Part shown: positions 6,001-12,000 of the stretch, one piece after another
How positions within the stretch are numbered: position 1 is the first letter of the stretch
Layout of the letters: every line of letters begins with the position of its first letter
Origin: a bacterium
Lineage (GTDB): Bacteria > Patescibacteriota > Microgenomatia > Curtissbacterales > GWA2-41-24
Assembly: GCA_021813945.1 (NCBI GenBank)
Contig: JAKAJD010000002.1
Span: 97,343 to 161,342, forward strand
Direction of reading: 5' to 3'
Length of the DNA stretch: 64,000 nucleotides
Position numbers: made by a program

Positions 6001-9000
6001 AGTCAACAGCGACAAAACCATAACCTTTCCAAATAAAAAACCAATATCAAAAGAAAACGGAATTTATCTTTACAAAGTTTAAAATTTATTGAATGCCTTG
6101 ATAACTGTTTTGCATAAGTGGAGCAATATTGGCGTATGCGGATTTATAAACAAAATAAAATAAATATGTAATTGCTGCCATTTGTAAAATCACAATAGCA
6201 ATCATAAAAACTTTTGCAAAACTACTTAAAAATTCAGTCTTTTCAACTTTACGCCTAAAATAATATCCACCGACAAGCCCAACTAACCCCAGAATTATTG
6301 TTAGCCCAACTAATAAATTAAGAGCTGATTGAGAGACTCCAGTCTGCGAGGTGACCCCTAATTTTGCCAGTTGACTAGGCACACTTACAGAGGAAAGAGA
6401 AGTAATTGCAGAAAATAAAACCAGCAGCGAAAAAGCGATTGTAATAGCCGGCAAAACTTGGGATAAAACTTGTTTTTTGCTGGCTTTATAAAATGCCCAA
6501 ATTGTTGTAAATGGGGGAAACACTAAACTTAAAACAACATAACTCCAAACACGGACCTTAACGTTTTGCTGAGTTTGGGCAATCATTGTGTCCAGTGCAT
6601 CCACTGTTTGCGGTTCTTGGGTCAAAGTCGATTGTGGTTGTTGGGTTTGCAGCGGTAAAAGTTGTTCACCTGGTTGATTCAAGTTAGTATTTCCCATTAG
6701 TCTGTCTTAAGCGGCCTTAGCTGGGCTTGAGCTCGCGCGGGAATTTTGCACTTTTGCTATAAACGTACCCTCTGGAGAAATAGTCAATCCCAACAATCTT
6801 AAATTTGGATTAGTACGTTGAAGCTGGTCGTTAATATCATCACCAATAAAACTGTTTATATTATTTAGTTGAGATTCTACATCACCCAAACGACTTCTAA
6901 TCATGTTGCTCTCTGTATTAAAACTCTGACCTGTCACCCTTAAACCAGAACCATCAGCTTTGTTTGCAATCCCCAACCTAAAATCAAGCTTCCCTTTTAT
7001 AAACCCAAACCCTGCTTTTATCTCTCCAGACAATGTTACTGTCTGACCCTGAAATCGGATATCTAATTGAGTTATCGACGCCATAGGTAATTCCTTAGTC
7101 ATTAAATATTTTCGTACATCAGCATCGGTTATTGTAACAGAAGAAACAGGTTCACCATTTCTACCTCCTTCGGCAATTTTTTCAACTAAAGTTCTAGGTT
7201 CTCTCTTAACTTCTCGAACCTCAACTGCTTTTGCCTTTCTTCCTTTTAATTCATAGACGACTTTGTCACCAAATCTTATTGGCGTGATTGTAGATTGTTT
7301 GAACTTAAGTAGACTATCAACTTGAACCAAAACAGAGGCATCCATTTTCCCCTGTTGAACATTAGACTCCACATACCCTCTAATCATTTGCTGCATTCTA
7401 CTAAGTGTAGCCCCATCTGTCCTGAAAGGTTTAACAAACTTTTTCCATTCGCCCTTTCTGTCTAAAAGTGAATTAGTAGTGGCTTCAGTAATCGAACTTT
7501 GACTAACACCTGCATTAGGCTCCTCTGGTACAACCTTCAAAATATCCCAAGATTGCTTAGTCAAAACTTCCTTTATAACACCTGATGTATCAATGCTTGT
7601 CGTTGTCATCTCGACTTCTCGTCGTTCACCGTGCTTTCTTTGTTTATCATCGTCGTAGACAATCAAATTACCTTCAGTTCTTACCTGACCTTTTTGTTTC
7701 CAAGTTTCCGATCCCTGAAGAAAGGAAACGTACAATTTAGGGTTTTCTTTACTCTTTCCCCTCCCTCTGTCGTTTGCTAACGCTCTTTTTATCTTGTCCG
7801 GGGCTTTGTGCGAATCAATCAAACCTTTTGCAGTGTCTAGCATTTCCTGAGGCATTTTACCTTCTTGAACCTGCTTTTCTATATATTCAATTGCTTGCGA
7901 CTGCATGTGAATTAATGTTTCGCGATCGACATTTACCCTACCCCAGACAACACCAACCGTGGTTTCTCCAACTAGCTCGGGTGCTCGTCCACCAATTCCA
8001 TAGAATGAGTCAACACCAGGTATGTATTTTTTTCCATTTAAAGCTTTCGCCCCGTATGCATCAGCTTCGAAAGTATGACCACCCTTACCGACCGATTCGG
8101 GATTGGTTTCAAGAAGTTCCCACATAAATGGGGTTGGCACTTTTTCCATGCCACTAGATTCCATAACGGCTGGGTCCCAAGATTCACTATCTGTTACGTC
8201 AACGGCCAGCTCTATGCCTCGCTCAAAATTATTGGCTTCTTCAACAACAATCCTATAGCGCCCCCAGCTATTTGTGTCCCGATCATAATGCGACTGCGTA
8301 TATATACCCATCCATGTAGTATCCCTATTGAACGCTCCATGAGTCTCCCTTGCTGGAGTAAAAGATAAATTATCTCCATTTAAGATTATTTGTCCCGACT
8401 TACCTCTCCATTTGTCTTTTTTGTAGTACACGTGGTCACCTGCCTCCGAATAAGTATCCCTAAAGGTTTTTGCTTTTTCTCCTTCTGAACCTTCTGGCTC
8501 AACTGGCTGCCCAACTTCATCAGAAGATAATGATTTATCGTTTGCTTCCCGCCTCACGCTATCCGCTAAAGCTTCGTTACTCTCCGCTTGGATTTGCTGT
8601 CTATTTTCAGCCTGCTCGGCAGCTTGTGCCTCCCGTAAACTAGCGGCTCTGGTTTGCTCATCACGAAATCTTTCTAACGCTTCTCTAATGTATTTGTGAT
8701 TGCCTGAATATGCTTCAGCTTTTTTAGGATTTTCGCGCACGAACTGGTCCCATTCACGCCTGTTTTGCGCTTCATACTCTTGATGCCAAACTTGTTGATA
8801 ATTTTGCGACGCCCTTTCCCTAGCTTCCATTACTCCTGGTTCTAGATTTGTTCTGGTAGCCACTCTGACTTCAATCTTTCTGACTTGAGGATCCATATAT
8901 GACTCTTGGTAAATTTTCCTGGATTCATCCCTACCTTGAGCAGGTTTTTCATCCTCTGTTCTTCCTATACCTGTTTTTTTGAGATTTCTATTCCCGAATT

Positions 9001-12000
9001 TTGCCTCTTTATACTGGGCCATAGTCTCAAAGCGCCTATATGTTCTCTTTCTGCCAGCCTGCGCTAAATTAACCATTCGGGCTCGACTATTTCCTTCGTC
9101 GCCTTTATTACCTAAAGCGTTCATTGCACCCAAGGGCCCCAAATTATCAGCAGCTTTCGGTTTGTGCTCGGACTTAGGCTTACCTCCGGAAGATTCAAGA
9201 CGAATATCTCCTCTGCTAATCTCTCCACTAGCCGGTCCTTTAGCCATTTTTAATCATCCCCTCTAAAGAAGCACGCAGCTTTCCAATCATTTCAACCTTA
9301 TGTTTTTCATCTTGTTCAGAAAGTATCTGAAACACTACACCGGAAAGCTCCGATGCTTTGTCATCAAGCTGTGGAATTACCCTTAAAAGTTCATCATGAG
9401 TGATATTTTCCGGGACCATTTCCAATACCAGTTCAGCAACTTCAGCGGCTCGATCTCCTGTTATTTCACCATTTGTAAGCTGCTTGTGGAGGTCATCTAC
9501 AATCAAGGCTTCTAGTTTTTTGCGAAGAGTTAAAGCGTCCTCGTTTTGCATCCTCTAAATTCAATTGTAAACTATCTACCTTCGTGTTGCGCGAAGAAAT
9601 GTCCAACGCATGCGGTCTGCAAAATTCATACTTTTGTAAAGGGCTTGCCTTAAAATCAAATCATAAGTTCCTATATATTCAACATGCGAAGGTCCATACC
9701 CAGCTTTAAATCGATGGAAACCAAACCAAGGGTCACTGTCTTTGGCGTCCGGTCCTAAAGCCCCCCACATGTCAAAAACCCTCAGCCCCATTTTTTTACC
9801 CATACGGATTGCTTCCCATGCTACTAAATTGGATGCCATAACCTCGCGGTTTTCGTTAGAAGACCCGCCATAAGGGTAATAAAGTGTCTCCTTAAAATTA
9901 AAAAGCATCCAGGCAACCAGTGGTATTCCTTGGTATTTTCCAATTAAAAGCCTTGCCATCCCCGCAGGCATTAAAGTTTTCCAGACCAAACGATGGTAAT
10001 CCGGTGTGTGGCCAAAGTACTTTTGTCGATGTGTTGTATCAAAATATAGTTTCAAGTAAATTTCAAAATCCGCATCTTTTGTTGATTCGTAAACCTCAAC
10101 ACCTTTTTTTTGTGCAACGCCAATGTTGTAACGTGTCTTTGGGTGCATCGCCGCAAGCAAATTTTGTTCAGATTTTGTCAAATCCAGCAAAAAATTGTAC
10201 CGAGTAAAAAGCGATTTTTTAGAAAGGGTGTACCCCAAGGTAAGTATTTTTTGCCTCAAATCTTCCTGTGCGAAAACATTCGGCTCAATTTTTATAAAAG
10301 CTACGTTTTTATCACGCCCAACCTCAATTAGTGCTTTTGTAGATTCTGCATCAGGCATTGGCCCTTTTGGAAGATAACCCACAACCTGCGGAAAGATCGG
10401 AACCGGGTGTAAAGTCAGCTGGTACGCAGAAACCATCGTATTTCCGTTGAATTGCCCTAGCCTCACAAGCTCGAGCCCCGTTTTTTTGCGGAAATCTCCC
10501 CACTCCCATGACTGAATAATATGGTGAACATGTGCGTTGTAGTTAATCTTTTCGGTCTCCTCAACCTCGCGAACGATCATTAACTTATTATACTAACTCG
10601 CTAAGGGAATATTTTTCAGCTTTTTATAACAATTGCCGAAAAATCACTAAATAGTCTTTTAATTTTAGGATCAATAACTGCCTGGCAATAGGGAGCAGAT
10701 CGATTTTGGTCGTAATAATTCATGTGATAACCTTCCGCTTTATAAAAATTTTTAAAAGGAACAATTTCTGTCACCACTTTACCAGAATAAAGTCCAGATT
10801 TATCAATAGCAATTTTTAGCTTTTCTGACAACCTTTTTTGTTCCAGGTTTCTATAAAAGATCGCAGATCTGTACTCCGTTCCCACATCAGCGCCTTGCCG
10901 GTTAAGTGTTGTTGGATCATGCAGCTTGAAAAAAACTTCAAAAAGCGTTTCCAGAGAAATTACTTTAGGGTCAAACTCAATCTGAATTGCCTCGGCATGT
11001 CCTGTTGTTCCACTGCAAACTTGCTCATAAGTCGGGTTTTCAACTGGTCCACCACTATAACCCGGAGTTACCGAAATCACGCCTTTAATTCGTTTAAAAA
11101 TCGCCTCCGTGCACCAAAAACAACCACCGGCAAGAGTAATCACCTCAACGTTTTTCATATGAAGATCCATTCTAACTCACATGGGAACACCTTCCTTTAA
11201 AAATAAATAATCTGAGGTCTAAATCGCGCTAATCAGCTCTTCCGGAATATCTATTAGAAATCTCGAAACTAAATTAGAAGAAGTTACCCCAAAGTAAAGG
11301 CGCTGAGAAGCGTATGTCAAATAAAGCTTTTGCTTGGCTCGCGTCATTCCAACGTATGCAAGCCGCCTTTCTTCCTCAATTTGTGAAACATCAAGCATCG
11401 ACCGTGAATGCGGGAATAACCCTTCTTCCATTCCGATTATAAAAACGTTTCCAAACTCCAACCCTTTTGCAGCATGAATTGTCATGAGAGTCACGGAATT
11501 TACATCAATTTGCCCTTCATGGGACTTGGAAGGTGTCACTTTTCCCTCCATAAGAGCGATATTTTCCAAAAGCATCGTTATATTTTCGTAATCTTGGGCA
11601 ACTGATTTTAACTCCTTTACGTTTTCGACTCTCATCAGTCCTTGCTCCGTCCCGTCATCTATAAGCTCAATATAACCGGTCGCCTCAAGCACTTTATCGA
11701 TTACCTCAGCAGGCGTTGGTCTTTTCTTTGCCGCTTTATTTTTTTTAGCAACGTCTAAAAACTTTTTAAATCTGCTCTTGCCTAACTTTTCTACTCTCGT
11801 TAAGGAAACATCATCCAGGGGATTTTCAATAACCCTCAAATATGCCAGAACATCTTTAACTTCTTTGCGCTCATAGAAGCGCACGCCGCCATAAATTCGG
11901 TAGGGAATATTGGCATGCAAAAGCGCCTCCTCAACCGTTCTAGATTGGGCATTGGTTCTATATAAAATCGCAAATTCTCCGAAATTTTCGGTAGAATTTA

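What the first reader, a model, noticed from the sequence alone, without database searches (positions are those of the whole stretch)
6086..10580. Four-gene minus-strand operon pairing a FemAB-family aminoacyltransferase with a cysteine-free 846-aa protein of unknown family
Gene order on the minus strand is FemAB-like (9576-10580), a 103-aa acidic protein (9240-9551), an 846-aa protein (6707-9247) and a 4-TM membrane protein (6086-6697). Spacings are 24 nt, an 8-nt overlap, and 9 nt, so co-transcription and translational coupling are likely. The FemAB gene has a leaderless-type TATAAT-N6-ATG promoter. The 846-aa protein has no TM helix, no signal peptide and no cysteine. Its first third is R/E/K/Q-rich and disorder-like; the rest is W/Y/G-rich with no motif I can assign. 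FemAB enzymes normally use aminoacyl-tRNA to build peptidoglycan cross-bridges, but paralogues are also recruited to tRNA-dependent peptide and natural-product pathways. The tight linkage to a giant unknown protein, a small acidic protein and a membrane protein suggests an uncharacterised envelope or peptide-modification module. This is the best candidate in the window for an undescribed system.
Basis: partly seen in the sequence, partly recalled or inferred. Interest (0 to 1): 0.75.

Follow-up and report, generated by a model that had tools for sequence, protein, structure and literature searches.

The report
Ordinary FemX beside an orphan gene module
The cell-wall enzyme gene (FemX type) and the three genes after it are neighbours by shared ancestry, not one system; the three unknown genes are a separate, fast-changing module found only in Curtissbacteria, and its large protein may bind lipid.

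Summary
The sequence facts are right: four minus-strand ORFs at the stated coordinates, with the stated spacings and a TATAAT-N6-ATG before the FemAB gene.

- **FemAB gene.** It encodes an ordinary full-length FemX-type peptidoglycan aminoacyltransferase. It is 64-90 % identical across related Candidatus Curtissbacteria (CPR) genomes, in which the whole PcrA-to-AddB block is syntenic.
- **The real unit.** The conserved unit is (2-TM 'pre' protein), 103-aa acidic protein, large protein, 4-TM protein. It occurs without FemAB in at least five other genomic contexts, where it has its own -10 box. More distant homologues of the large protein stand alone.
- **Exchangeable cassette.** DNA similarity to the closest relative stops at the start codon of the large gene and resumes inside the membrane gene. 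A more distant genome carries a 76 %-identical allele.
- **Large protein.** It has a basic N-terminal extension that co-occurs with the acidic partner. Next comes a tandemly duplicated unit (hhalign E 7e-17) with no known relative. Last is a C-terminal domain with weak fold similarity to TULIP lipid-binding proteins.

No Pfam, NCBIfam, PHROG or PADLOC profile, PDB sequence or viral structure matches. The function remains inferred. I propose a cytoplasmic, membrane-associated lipid- or ligand-binding complex. Interest is moderate.

The parts
10587..10592 (-). TATAAT -10-like box, 6 nt upstream of the FemAB start codon (leaderless-type arrangement)
   Evidence: Read directly. A -10-like box 5-7 nt before the start recurs in L005, L006, L008, L013 and L015. 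The scan found no -35 partner.
9576..10580 (-). FemX-type (FemABX family) aminoacyl-tRNA-dependent peptidoglycan side-chain transferase, 334 aa. This is a neighbour of the module, not a part of it.
   Evidence: - Pfam FemAB 1.6e-32, 113 bits.
- Colinear with the 335-aa Weissella FemX (aa 49-316 against 53-330) and with S. aureus FemX 6snr (3e-16). The RFKAGYG motif aligns with AFKKVWG and KFKKGYN.
- Its 90 %-identity cluster has 14 members, named 'FemAB family protein' or 'lipid II:glycine glycyltransferase'.
9564..9569 (-). TACAAT -10-like element just after the FemAB stop codon. It is homologous to the TAAAAT that precedes the 'pre' gene in L006 and L008, and is a possible module promoter.
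   Evidence: DNA alignment A5. Function is not shown.
9240..9551 (-). Small acidic all-helical partner protein (103 aa). Its first ~5 codons derive from the deleted 'pre' gene.
   Evidence: - It has 19 homologues at 57-100 % identity, one of them named Curtissbacteria.
- It lies directly upstream of the large gene with a conserved 8-nt overlap in every locus examined.
- The in-frame pre-small fusion is shown by alignment A5.
- It has no Pfam, NCBIfam, PHROG, PADLOC or PDB match.
8441..9247 (-). Large protein aa 1-269: charged N-terminal extension, part low-confidence and part long helices. It carries the basic motif RTYRRFETMAQYK (aa 68-80, nt 9008-9046).
   Evidence: - Composition; model.
- The motif is found in 10 of the 13 loci that have the small partner (variants in 3), and in none of the stand-alone homologues.
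7757..8440 (-). Large protein aa 270-497: repeat unit 1 (beta-rich part, the VPTPFMWELLE helix and a helical hairpin)
7283..7747 (-). Large protein aa 501-655: repeat unit 2 (contains the LTKQSWDILK helix)
   Evidence: This unit holds the most conserved columns of the family: T294, W298, I300, L301, G330 and W332, numbered as in alignment A2.
6728..7189 (-). Large protein aa 687-840: C-terminal alpha+beta domain with a tentative TULIP-like (tubular lipid-binding) fold. It is optional within the family.
   Evidence: - Confident in both models.
- Foldseek best hit is YceB 3l6i, E 0.015.
- NTF2-like hits score about equally.
- There is no significant Pfam hit.
- The domain is absent from the L006, L008, L010 and L013 alleles. 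It also occurs alone (P0038) and fused to a MerR HTH (P0039).
6707..9247 (-). Whole large gene (846 aa): an exchangeable, fast-diverging cassette
   Evidence: blastn similarity to L013, L006 and L008 stops at window 9237-9202 and resumes at 6612-6585. Against L005 the large gene is 79 % identical but its flank only 73 %.
6086..6697 (-). 4-TM membrane protein (203 aa) with a Q-rich N-terminal tail. It is the usual downstream partner in the module.
   Evidence: It is homologous to the 185-200-aa genes downstream of the large gene in L006, L008, L010, L012, L013 and L024. It is absent directly downstream in L004. It has no significant family hit.

Best explanation
Two unrelated things lie side by side.

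**(1) The FemAB gene.** The 334-aa protein is the organism's ordinary FemX-type enzyme. It uses aminoacyl-tRNA to add a side-chain residue to the peptidoglycan precursor. It sits in a housekeeping neighbourhood that includes the cell-wall genes for an LCP protein (14036-15229) and MurJ (15920-17578).

**(2) A separate module restricted to Candidatus Curtissbacteria.** Downstream lies a separate module. Its ancestral form is a 2-TM 'pre' protein, a small acidic helical protein, a large modular protein and a 4-TM protein. In the window's lineage the pre gene was removed by an in-frame deletion.

**Proposed mechanism (inferred).**
- The small acidic protein is made in fixed ratio with the large protein through the conserved 8-nt start/stop overlap.
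- It binds or chaperones the basic N-terminal extension of the large protein (the R-x-Y-R-R-F...Y-R motif).
- The large protein stays in the cytoplasm and docks at the membrane through the 4-TM partner.
- Its C-terminal TULIP-like domain, where present, binds a lipid or another hydrophobic ligand.

The large gene is exchanged between lineages as a cassette and diverges quickly. This suggests selection from an outside partner such as a phage or host, or weak constraint.

**Shown:** gene content and order, homology relationships, loss of FemAB linkage in diverged relatives, cassette breakpoints, the internal duplication, and co-occurrence of the small partner with the N-terminal extension.

**Inferred:** the protein-protein contacts, the cytoplasmic location, lipid or ligand binding, and the biological role.
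For: **FemX identity.** The catalytic role of the Phe-Lys motif is described in PMC12945691.

**Synteny rather than functional coupling.**
- The block PcrA-MsrA-FemAB-module-methyltransferase-AddB recurs in L005, L006, L008, L010, L013, L015 and L019.
- The module lacks FemAB in L004/L023, L012, L016/L022, L024 and L025, and has different neighbours in each.
- A -10 box sits directly before pre in those loci.
- Distant homologues of the large protein stand alone in L027, L028 and L029.

**Different evolutionary tempo.** Window against L013: PcrA 93 %, FemAB 90 %, small 83 %, AddB 88 %, large 29 %. Window against L005: FemAB 86 %, large 76 %. DNA breakpoints fall at the small/large junction and in the 5' end of the membrane gene.

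**Small partner and N-terminal motif.** They co-occur in all 13 loci with a small partner and in neither of the two clearly stand-alone loci.

**Tandem duplication.** hhalign gives probability 98.8 %, E 7e-17, and the controls give <1 %.

**TULIP-like C-terminal domain.**

**Hints of a cytoplasmic location.**
- The large protein has no signal peptide or TM segment.
- The C-terminal domain is fused to a MerR HTH in P0039.
- The optional insert domain of the family is shared with PP2C and GrpE fusions.
Against: - FemAB adjacency persists across all eight distinct group-1 loci, down to 64 % FemAB identity, even where the genes upstream of FemAB differ (L010, L013). Some functional tie in that sub-clade therefore cannot be excluded.
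- I could not check whether genomes that carry the module elsewhere also have a FemX gene, nor whether genomes with this FemX lack the module.
- The MerR fusion rests on one 1.4-kb contig.
- The co-occurrence counts are small and not phylogenetically independent.
- No experiment or complex prediction supports the proposed contacts.
Confidence: 0.55

Rival explanations
1. FemAB and the three downstream genes form one functional system. In it the FemAB paralogue uses aminoacyl-tRNA to modify the large protein, the small protein, or a peptide or envelope product handled by the module.
For: - The genes share a strand, with a 24-nt gap and no terminator-like site between them.
- Adjacency is kept in eight distinct loci with FemAB identity from 64 to 100 %, including loci where the genes upstream of FemAB differ.
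- Several group-1 large proteins end in K-A-A or K-E-A-A, loosely reminiscent of a Lys-Ala-Ala stem-peptide end.
- FemABX-like enzymes are known to be recruited to natural-product pathways (PMC12945691).
Against: - The module occurs without FemAB in at least five other contexts, with its own -10 box.
- Distant homologues stand alone.
- The flanking DNA-repair and methyltransferase genes are just as syntenic as FemAB.
- FemAB is conservative and full-length FemX-like, whereas the large gene is swapped between lineages.
- L005 keeps FemAB, yet its large protein ends in QQAAAA with no Lys.
- A remnant of the pre-gene start region with a -10-like box sits right after the FemAB stop.
Confidence: 0.08
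2. A conflict module. Possibilities are a toxin/effector with a chaperone or antitoxin (the small acidic protein) and a membrane immunity protein, or an anti-phage system. The large protein would be diversified by an arms race.
For: - The large gene shows cassette-like replacement, domain shuffling and a discordant phylogeny.
- A small acidic partner is translationally coupled upstream, and a membrane protein lies downstream.
- In diverged genomes the module lies next to RelB/YafQ (L012), next to small toxin-antitoxin-like genes (L025; named from a first-40-residue sequence pattern only, not HMM-tested), and next to a serine-recombinase element (L004).
- TULIP proteins include membrane-active ones such as BPI.
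Against: - No PADLOC, PHROG or Pfam toxin or defence domain matches.
- The module is not found on viral contigs or in viral structure space.
- It is single-copy at a fixed chromosomal site in group 1.
- The membrane protein's identity (61-66 %) does not track the allele type of the large protein.
- Distant homologues stand alone, without a partner or an immunity-like gene.
Confidence: 0.2
3. An exported surface or host-interaction protein of an episymbiotic CPR cell. It would be secreted by a non-classical route using the two membrane proteins, with the TULIP-like domain extracting host lipids.
For: - The large protein is Cys-free in nearly all homologues and hypervariable.
- All known bacterial TULIP families are extracytoplasmic (PMC6791001).
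- CPR bacteria are reported to be unable to make membrane lipids, and the source of those lipids is unknown (bioRxiv 10.1101/465690, also PMC7242380).
- A TULIP protein paired with a small adaptor in one operon is known from a predatory bacterium (TipA/TipB).
Against: - The large protein has no signal peptide, TM segment, lipobox or sorting motif.
- The Cys-free state is barely unusual in this proteome.
- The C-terminal domain is fused to a cytoplasmic MerR HTH in P0039, and the family's insert domain is fused to GrpE and PP2C.
- No secretion ATPase lies in the neighbourhood.
Confidence: 0.12

Closest known systems
FemX of Weissella viridescens and FemX/FemA of Staphylococcus aureus (FemABX family, Pfam PF02388); applies to the 334-aa gene only
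   Same: - It has the same length class as FemX-Wv (334 against 335 aa) and is colinear over aa 49-316.
- It has the double-GNAT Pfam signature (FemAB plus Acetyltransf_6).
- The Phe-Lys motif (RFKAGYG) aligns with that of FemX-Sa and FemA.
- LCP and MurJ genes lie 3.5 and 5.3 kb away in the window.
   Different: - Sequence similarity is low (E 4e-7 to FemX-Wv).
- It falls far below the NCBIfam FemX equivalog cut-off (47.7 against 500 bits), so the amino acid it transfers and its acceptor are unknown.
- It lacks the coiled-coil insert of the S. aureus FemA/FemX proteins.
Bacterial TULIP-domain proteins (YceB/DUF1439, LmeA/DUF2993, P47/OrfX, DUF2140, DUF4403); applies to the C-terminal domain of the large protein
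   Same: - The predicted order is helix, then long curved antiparallel sheet, then helices.
- TULIP proteins are the recurrent long-alignment fold hits: YceB, BPI, SPLUNC1, Mdm12, Takeout, OrfX3/P47 and Der p 7.
- Sub-threshold Pfam hits to LmeA and JHBP occur in single family members.
   Different: - There is no significant sequence-profile relationship.
- There is no export signal, whereas all known bacterial TULIPs have one (PMC6791001).
- Here the domain ends a large cytoplasm-type protein, after a duplicated novel unit.
TipA/TipB of Bdellovibrio bacteriovorus (a TULIP protein and a small adaptor encoded in one operon)
   Same: A TULIP-type protein is encoded next to a small partner protein. 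This offers a precedent for a partner that regulates a TULIP domain.
   Different: - TipB is a beta-sandwich encoded downstream. Here the partner appears helical (from its sequence pattern; its structure was not predicted), is acidic, and is encoded upstream.
- The partner co-occurs with the N-terminal extension, not with the TULIP-like domain. Alleles without that domain keep the partner.
- There is no sequence or fold match to TipA.
Polymorphic toxin / LXG-type effector loci with small helical partner genes upstream and an immunity gene downstream
   Same: The gene order is small helical protein(s), then a large modular and variable protein, then a membrane protein. The large gene shows domain shuffling and cassette exchange.
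   Different: - There is no recognisable toxin, LXG or WXG domain, and the small protein has no Trp at all.
- No FtsK/EssC-type secretion ATPase gene lies beside the module.
- Variation affects the whole protein, not just the C-terminal tip.

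Membership tests
FemABX aminoacyl-tRNA-dependent peptidyltransferases (334-aa protein) | Significant match to the FemAB profile over both halves of the protein | tested here: met
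   Pfam PF02388 scores 113 bits against a cut-off of 24, in 2 stretches. Acetyltransf_6 scores 47 bits.
FemABX aminoacyl-tRNA-dependent peptidyltransferases (334-aa protein) | Colinear double-GNAT architecture comparable to a solved Fem enzyme | tested here: met
   aa 49-316 align with FemX-Wv 53-330. aa 20-318 align with S. aureus FemX 6snr in two blocks around its coiled-coil insert. No structure was predicted for this protein.
FemABX aminoacyl-tRNA-dependent peptidyltransferases (334-aa protein) | Conserved Phe-Lys of the active site (Lys305 in FemX-Wv) | tested here: met
   RFKAGYG aligns with AFKKVWG (FemX-Sa) and KFKKGYN (FemA-Sa). The phmmer alignment to FemX-Wv itself is offset by two residues there. 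The role of Lys305 is from PMC12945691.
FemABX aminoacyl-tRNA-dependent peptidyltransferases (334-aa protein) | Equivalog-level identity with a characterised enzyme (defined donor and acceptor) | tested here: not met
   NCBIfam NF047883 FemX scores 47.7 bits against a cut-off of 500. TIGR03019 scores 42 against 260. It is a family member, but its specificity is unknown.
FemABX aminoacyl-tRNA-dependent peptidyltransferases (334-aa protein) | Aminoacyl-tRNA-dependent transfer to a peptidoglycan precursor | not testable with these tools
   This needs a biochemical assay.
TULIP (tubular lipid-binding) superfamily (C-terminal domain of the 846-aa protein) | Fold: a long helix wrapped by a strongly curved antiparallel beta-sheet | tested here: inconclusive
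   - The confident model (pLDDT about 75-90) has four 9-13-residue strands flanked by helices.
- The Foldseek best hit is YceB, E 0.015.
TULIP (tubular lipid-binding) superfamily (C-terminal domain of the 846-aa protein) | Sequence-profile relationship to a TULIP family (LmeA/DUF2993, YceB/DUF1439, JHBP, BPI, SMP) | tested here: not met
   Only isolated sub-threshold hits: LmeA E 0.039 in 1 of 20 members and JHBP E 0.1 in 1 of 9 domain sequences. A PDB sequence-profile search gave no hit. HHpred against Pfam was not available.
TULIP (tubular lipid-binding) superfamily (C-terminal domain of the 846-aa protein) | Hydrophobic internal cavity that binds lipid | not testable with these tools
   The model coordinates could not be inspected, and there is no binding assay.
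TULIP (tubular lipid-binding) superfamily (C-terminal domain of the 846-aa protein) | Export signal, as in all described bacterial TULIP families | tested here: not met
   The 846-aa protein has no hydrophobic N-terminus or TM segment. The literature basis is PMC6791001.
Known anti-phage defence systems | Match of any module protein to a defence-system HMM | tested here: not met
   PADLOC-DB gave no hit at E <= 0.01 for 7 proteins of the module and its homologues.
Phage or prophage structural or accessory protein | Match to a phage protein family, viral contig or viral structure | tested here: not met
   PHROGs gave no significant hit (one E 0.04 match for the membrane protein). The small-protein probe found no IMG/VR contig. 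BFVD gave no hit at E <= 1e-3.
Type II toxin-antitoxin / polymorphic toxin locus | Recognisable toxin domain in the large protein | tested here: not met
   Pfam, NCBIfam and per-member Pfam scans found none.
Type II toxin-antitoxin / polymorphic toxin locus | Small partner gene overlapping the large gene | tested here: met
   The 8-nt overlap is conserved in all loci.
Diversity-generating retroelement target | Template/variable repeat pair and a nearby reverse transcriptase | tested here: not met
   No direct or inverted repeat involves 6707-9247 in the 64-kb window.

The most novel reading that the evidence does not exclude
The module could be a Curtissbacteria-specific lipid-handling device. 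The large protein would use its TULIP-like domain to take up, sort or insert lipids scavenged from a host, in a bacterium that cannot make its own membrane lipids. It would be anchored by the 4-TM protein and regulated by the small acidic partner. The cassette-like exchange of the large gene would then reflect adaptation to different hosts or lipid sources. If so, the duplicated core unit would also be a new fold family.
Probability: 0.12. Interest if true: 0.75.

Novelty: new variant of a known kind. Interest (0 to 1): 0.4.

Why it matters
The FemAB gene by itself is routine.

The value lies in the correction. What looked like a tRNA-dependent peptide-modification system is an ordinary cell-wall gene next to an unrelated module restricted to one lineage.

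That module has some interest of its own:
- Its protein family has no relatives in Pfam, NCBIfam, PHROGs, PADLOC or PDB.
- Its core is a clear internal duplication.
- It may contain a TULIP-like domain in a protein with no export signal.
- Its large gene is swapped between genomes as a cassette within a fixed frame.

In CPR bacteria the route of lipid acquisition and the molecules that mediate host contact are still open questions. A variable protein that may bind lipid is a reasonable candidate to test. Nothing here shows that role yet.

Tried and rejected
**Searches that found nothing useful**
- Pfam, NCBIfam, PHROGs and PADLOC scans of the small, large and membrane proteins gave nothing significant.
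- Per-member Pfam scans of 20 family members and of 9 isolated C-terminal domains gave only scattered sub-threshold hits.
- PDB sequence-profile searches with the small-protein and core alignments gave no hits.
- Literature searches for Curtissbacteria or Microgenomates together with peptidoglycan or FemAB found no papers.

**Structure work**
- The first structure prediction, from a 4-sequence alignment, was too poor to use (pLDDT 46).
- A rerun on a 20-sequence core alignment reached pLDDT 83.
- AFDB50 was not available for fold search.

**Homologue and locus searches**
- The word-index homologue search found only 4-5 large-protein relatives even with a profile.
- The exhaustive HMMER search found 207 hits. 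Most match only an insert domain that the window protein lacks.
- A locus scan with the diverse core alignment failed for lack of a conserved stretch. The small-protein alignment was used instead.

**Ideas considered and rejected**
- Viral or prophage origin: no viral contig or viral structure match.
- DGR-driven hypervariability: no repeats.
- 'Cysteine-free' as a mark of export: the proteome background is 0.41 % Cys.
- 'W/Y-rich': not supported.
- T7SS/WXG-like small partner: no W in the small protein and no secretion ATPase nearby.

Full report
**Observation.** The spacings are a 24-nt gap, an 8-nt overlap and a 9-nt gap. TATAAT lies at 10587-10592, then six bases, then the FemAB ATG. The FemAB assignment is solid (Pfam 113 bits). 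The 846-aa protein has no Cys, no hydrophobic segment and no Pfam or NCBIfam hit.

Two descriptors need correcting. First, being Cys-free is barely unusual here. All four proteins lack Cys, and the window's proteome has 0.41 % Cys. Of 54 ORFs, 21 have none, and P is about 0.03 for 846 aa. Second, aa 271-846 are not W/Y-rich.

**Organism and distribution.** The window's four proteins occur on contigs of up to 976 kb. Named relatives belong to Candidatus Curtissbacteria, a CPR lineage in the Microgenomates.

The large protein is very narrowly distributed. The word-indexed search of 5.8 billion clusters found 4 relatives. The exhaustive HMMER search of 1.84 billion representatives found about 20 clusters that match its core or C-terminus. 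Most of the 207 hits in that search match only an optional ~240-aa insert domain that the window protein lacks. In other proteins that domain is N-terminal and fused to PP2C, Zn-peptidase, metallophosphoesterase or GrpE domains.

The small protein has 19 relatives at 57-100 % identity. It was found in only 4 of 185,579 species-representative genomes, in 10 metagenome loci and on no viral contig.

**Is FemAB part of the system?** I classified the gene content of all 26 fetched loci by BLASTP. There are two situations.

- **Group 1** comprises the window, L005, L006, L008, L010, L013, L015 and L019. The order is PcrA-(MsrA)-FemAB-(pre)-small-large-membrane, followed by a convergent methyltransferase and AddB. 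The whole stretch is syntenic, unrelated DNA-repair genes included.
- **Group 2** comprises L004/L023, L012, L016/L022, L021, L024, L025 and L026. Their small proteins are 52-58 % identical to the window's. The unit pre-small-large (with or without the membrane gene) is present, but no FemAB lies in the available flanks.

The neighbours in group 2 differ from locus to locus:
- L004: DUF3352 upstream, and a serine-recombinase element downstream.
- L012: RelB/YafQ.
- L016: TsaD and ribosomal protein L25 (named from sequence patterns, not HMM-tested).
- L025: small toxin-antitoxin-like genes (named from sequence patterns, not HMM-tested).

In group 2 the pre gene has its own -10 box 5-7 nt before its start. 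Leaderless-type starts are thus common in this lineage, and the module can be transcribed on its own. The most distant homologues of the large protein (28-31 % identity) stand alone. They lie after RNase J and before FtsK (L027), between an M23 peptidase and a PEGA/SH3 protein (L028), and before a flavoprotein (L029).

The FemAB protein itself looks like an ordinary peptidoglycan enzyme.
- It is the same size as Weissella FemX and colinear with it.
- It carries the Phe-Lys motif at the position of the catalytic Lys (PMC12945691).
- It lies within a few kb of LCP and MurJ genes.
- It is highly conserved, with 14 members in its 90 %-identity cluster. The other three proteins are each singletons.

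**The pre gene was deleted in the window's lineage.** In L006 and L008 a 93-94-aa 2-TM gene lies between FemAB and the small gene. The window's 24-nt spacer and the first ~5 codons of its small gene (MQNED) align with the upstream region and start of that pre gene (VPQNEE). From about codon 7 the window's gene aligns with the small gene. L005 and L013 share this in-frame deletion. The window therefore retains the pre-gene start region, including a -10-like TACAAT at 9564-9569, directly after the FemAB stop.

**The large gene is an exchangeable cassette.**
- Window against L013, its closest relative by flanks: PcrA 93 %, FemAB 90 %, small 83 %, AddB 88 %, but large protein 29 %. The L013 allele has the insert domain and lacks the C-terminal domain.
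- Window against L005: FemAB 86 %, small 71 %, large 76 %.
- At the DNA level, similarity to L013, L006 and L008 (70-84 %) ends at window 9237-9202, which is 10-45 nt into the large gene. It resumes at 6612-6585, about 85-110 nt into the membrane gene.
- Against L005, the large gene is 79 % identical while the flank is 73 %.
- No repeats or DGR signature are present.

**Anatomy of the large protein.** A 20-sequence core alignment gave a good model of aa 270-846 (pLDDT 83, pTM 0.65). The protein has four parts.

1. *N-terminal extension, aa 1-269.* It is charged, with part at low confidence and part as long helices. It carries the basic motif RTYRRFETMAQYK. That motif or a close variant is present in all 13 loci that have the small acidic partner. 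It is absent from the stand-alone homologues.
3. *A short hairpin and linker.*

NTF2-like folds score about the same as TULIP folds, and no sequence-profile hit is significant. I therefore call the C-terminal domain TULIP-like only tentatively. The domain is optional in the family. It also occurs alone (P0038) and, on one short contig, fused to a MerR DNA-binding domain in the position of an effector-binding module (P0039).

**Mechanism.** What is shown: the unit small + large (± pre, ± membrane protein) travels together; the small/large overlap is invariant; the small partner co-occurs with the basic N-terminal extension; the large gene is recombined between lineages; and FemAB is dispensable for the module's presence.

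What I infer (about 0.3 for the functional part):
- The acidic partner binds the basic N-terminal segment.
- The complex is cytoplasmic and docks on the 4-TM protein.
- The C-terminal domain binds a lipid or hydrophobic ligand.

The cytoplasmic call rests on three points. The large protein has no export signal. The C-terminal domain is fused to a MerR HTH. The shared insert domain is fused to GrpE and PP2C. Against it, every described bacterial TULIP family is exported (PMC6791001).

**Rivals.**
- *A conflict module (toxin/immunity or defence).* This fits the cassette behaviour and the TA and recombinase neighbours. It has no domain, PADLOC, PHROG or viral support.
- *An exported host-interaction or lipid-scavenging protein.* This would be the most interesting reading, since CPR bacteria are reported not to make their own lipids (bioRxiv 10.1101/465690). 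It lacks any export signal.

**Verdict.** There is an uncharacterised module, but it is not a FemAB system. The FemAB gene is already a known kind. The module is an orphan, lineage-restricted family whose only link to known biology is a weak TULIP-like fold. Interest is moderate (0.4).

Noticed in passing
window 6707-6715 (C-terminus of the 846-aa protein); also L004, L005, L006, L008, L010, P0024-P0026, P0031, P0032, P0038, P0039: Most close family members end in Ala-Ala whatever their domain make-up: AKAA, QQAAA, KEAA, SQAA, SKAA, VEAA. A few end in -VA or -IA. Distant members and L013 do not. Only 2 of 54 ORFs in the window end in AA. This could be an ssrA-like C-terminal degron or another recognition tag.
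   Followed up: partly
window 9537-9575 compared with L006:7689-7730 and L006:8001-8030: An in-frame deletion removed the ~93-aa 2-TM 'pre' gene in the window, L005 and L013 lineage. It fused the pre start region and ~5 codons to the small gene.
   Followed up: yes
P0044, P0048, P0055, P0068, P0081, P0099 and about 100 further proteins; inside L004, L005, L006, L008 and L013 large proteins; absent from the window: A ~240-aa domain (LLGG...ID.AKIEAIA.G.P...ER.EYWNGENSP...GKGD.GLF...IKNAQTD) sits at the N-terminus of many proteins. Their C-termini carry PP2C phosphatase, Zn-peptidase Mx1, metallophosphoesterase or GrpE domains. It looks like a shared targeting or docking module with no Pfam family.
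   Followed up: partly
L030:122-718 (P0039): A 198-aa protein fuses a MerR-type HTH (E 6e-15) to the C-terminal TULIP-like domain of this family. It was seen on one 1.4-kb contig only.
   Followed up: partly
L004:5500-12113: Next to the FemAB-less copy of the module lie about ten small hypothetical genes, a DUF5659 gene, a 457-aa gene with no Pfam match and a 573-aa serine recombinase. This looks like an integrated mobile element.
   Followed up: partly
L015:8305-10791: In one genome the large gene is split into three consecutive ORFs (138, 137 and 503 aa). Either it is a pseudogene or the assembly has frameshift errors.
   Followed up: no
window 6082-6086: The stop codons of the membrane gene (minus strand) and the convergent 177-aa methyltransferase-like gene (plus strand, 5549-6082) are only 3 nt apart. 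That leaves no room for terminators.
   Followed up: no
L004:2040-2078, L012:2690-2722, L016:7630-7664, L025:6325-6357; window 10578-10592: A -10-like box (TATAAT or TAAAAT) lies 4-7 nt before start codons, with no Shine-Dalgarno sequence, at several genes. This suggests that leaderless transcripts are common in this lineage.
   Followed up: partly
L004:5500-6183 and L024:2727-3414 (minus strand): A conserved pair of small genes (~122-126 aa acidic, ~104-109 aa) is inserted on the opposite strand directly after the large gene. In L024 it separates the large gene from the membrane gene. Pfam gives no match above cut-off.
   Followed up: no
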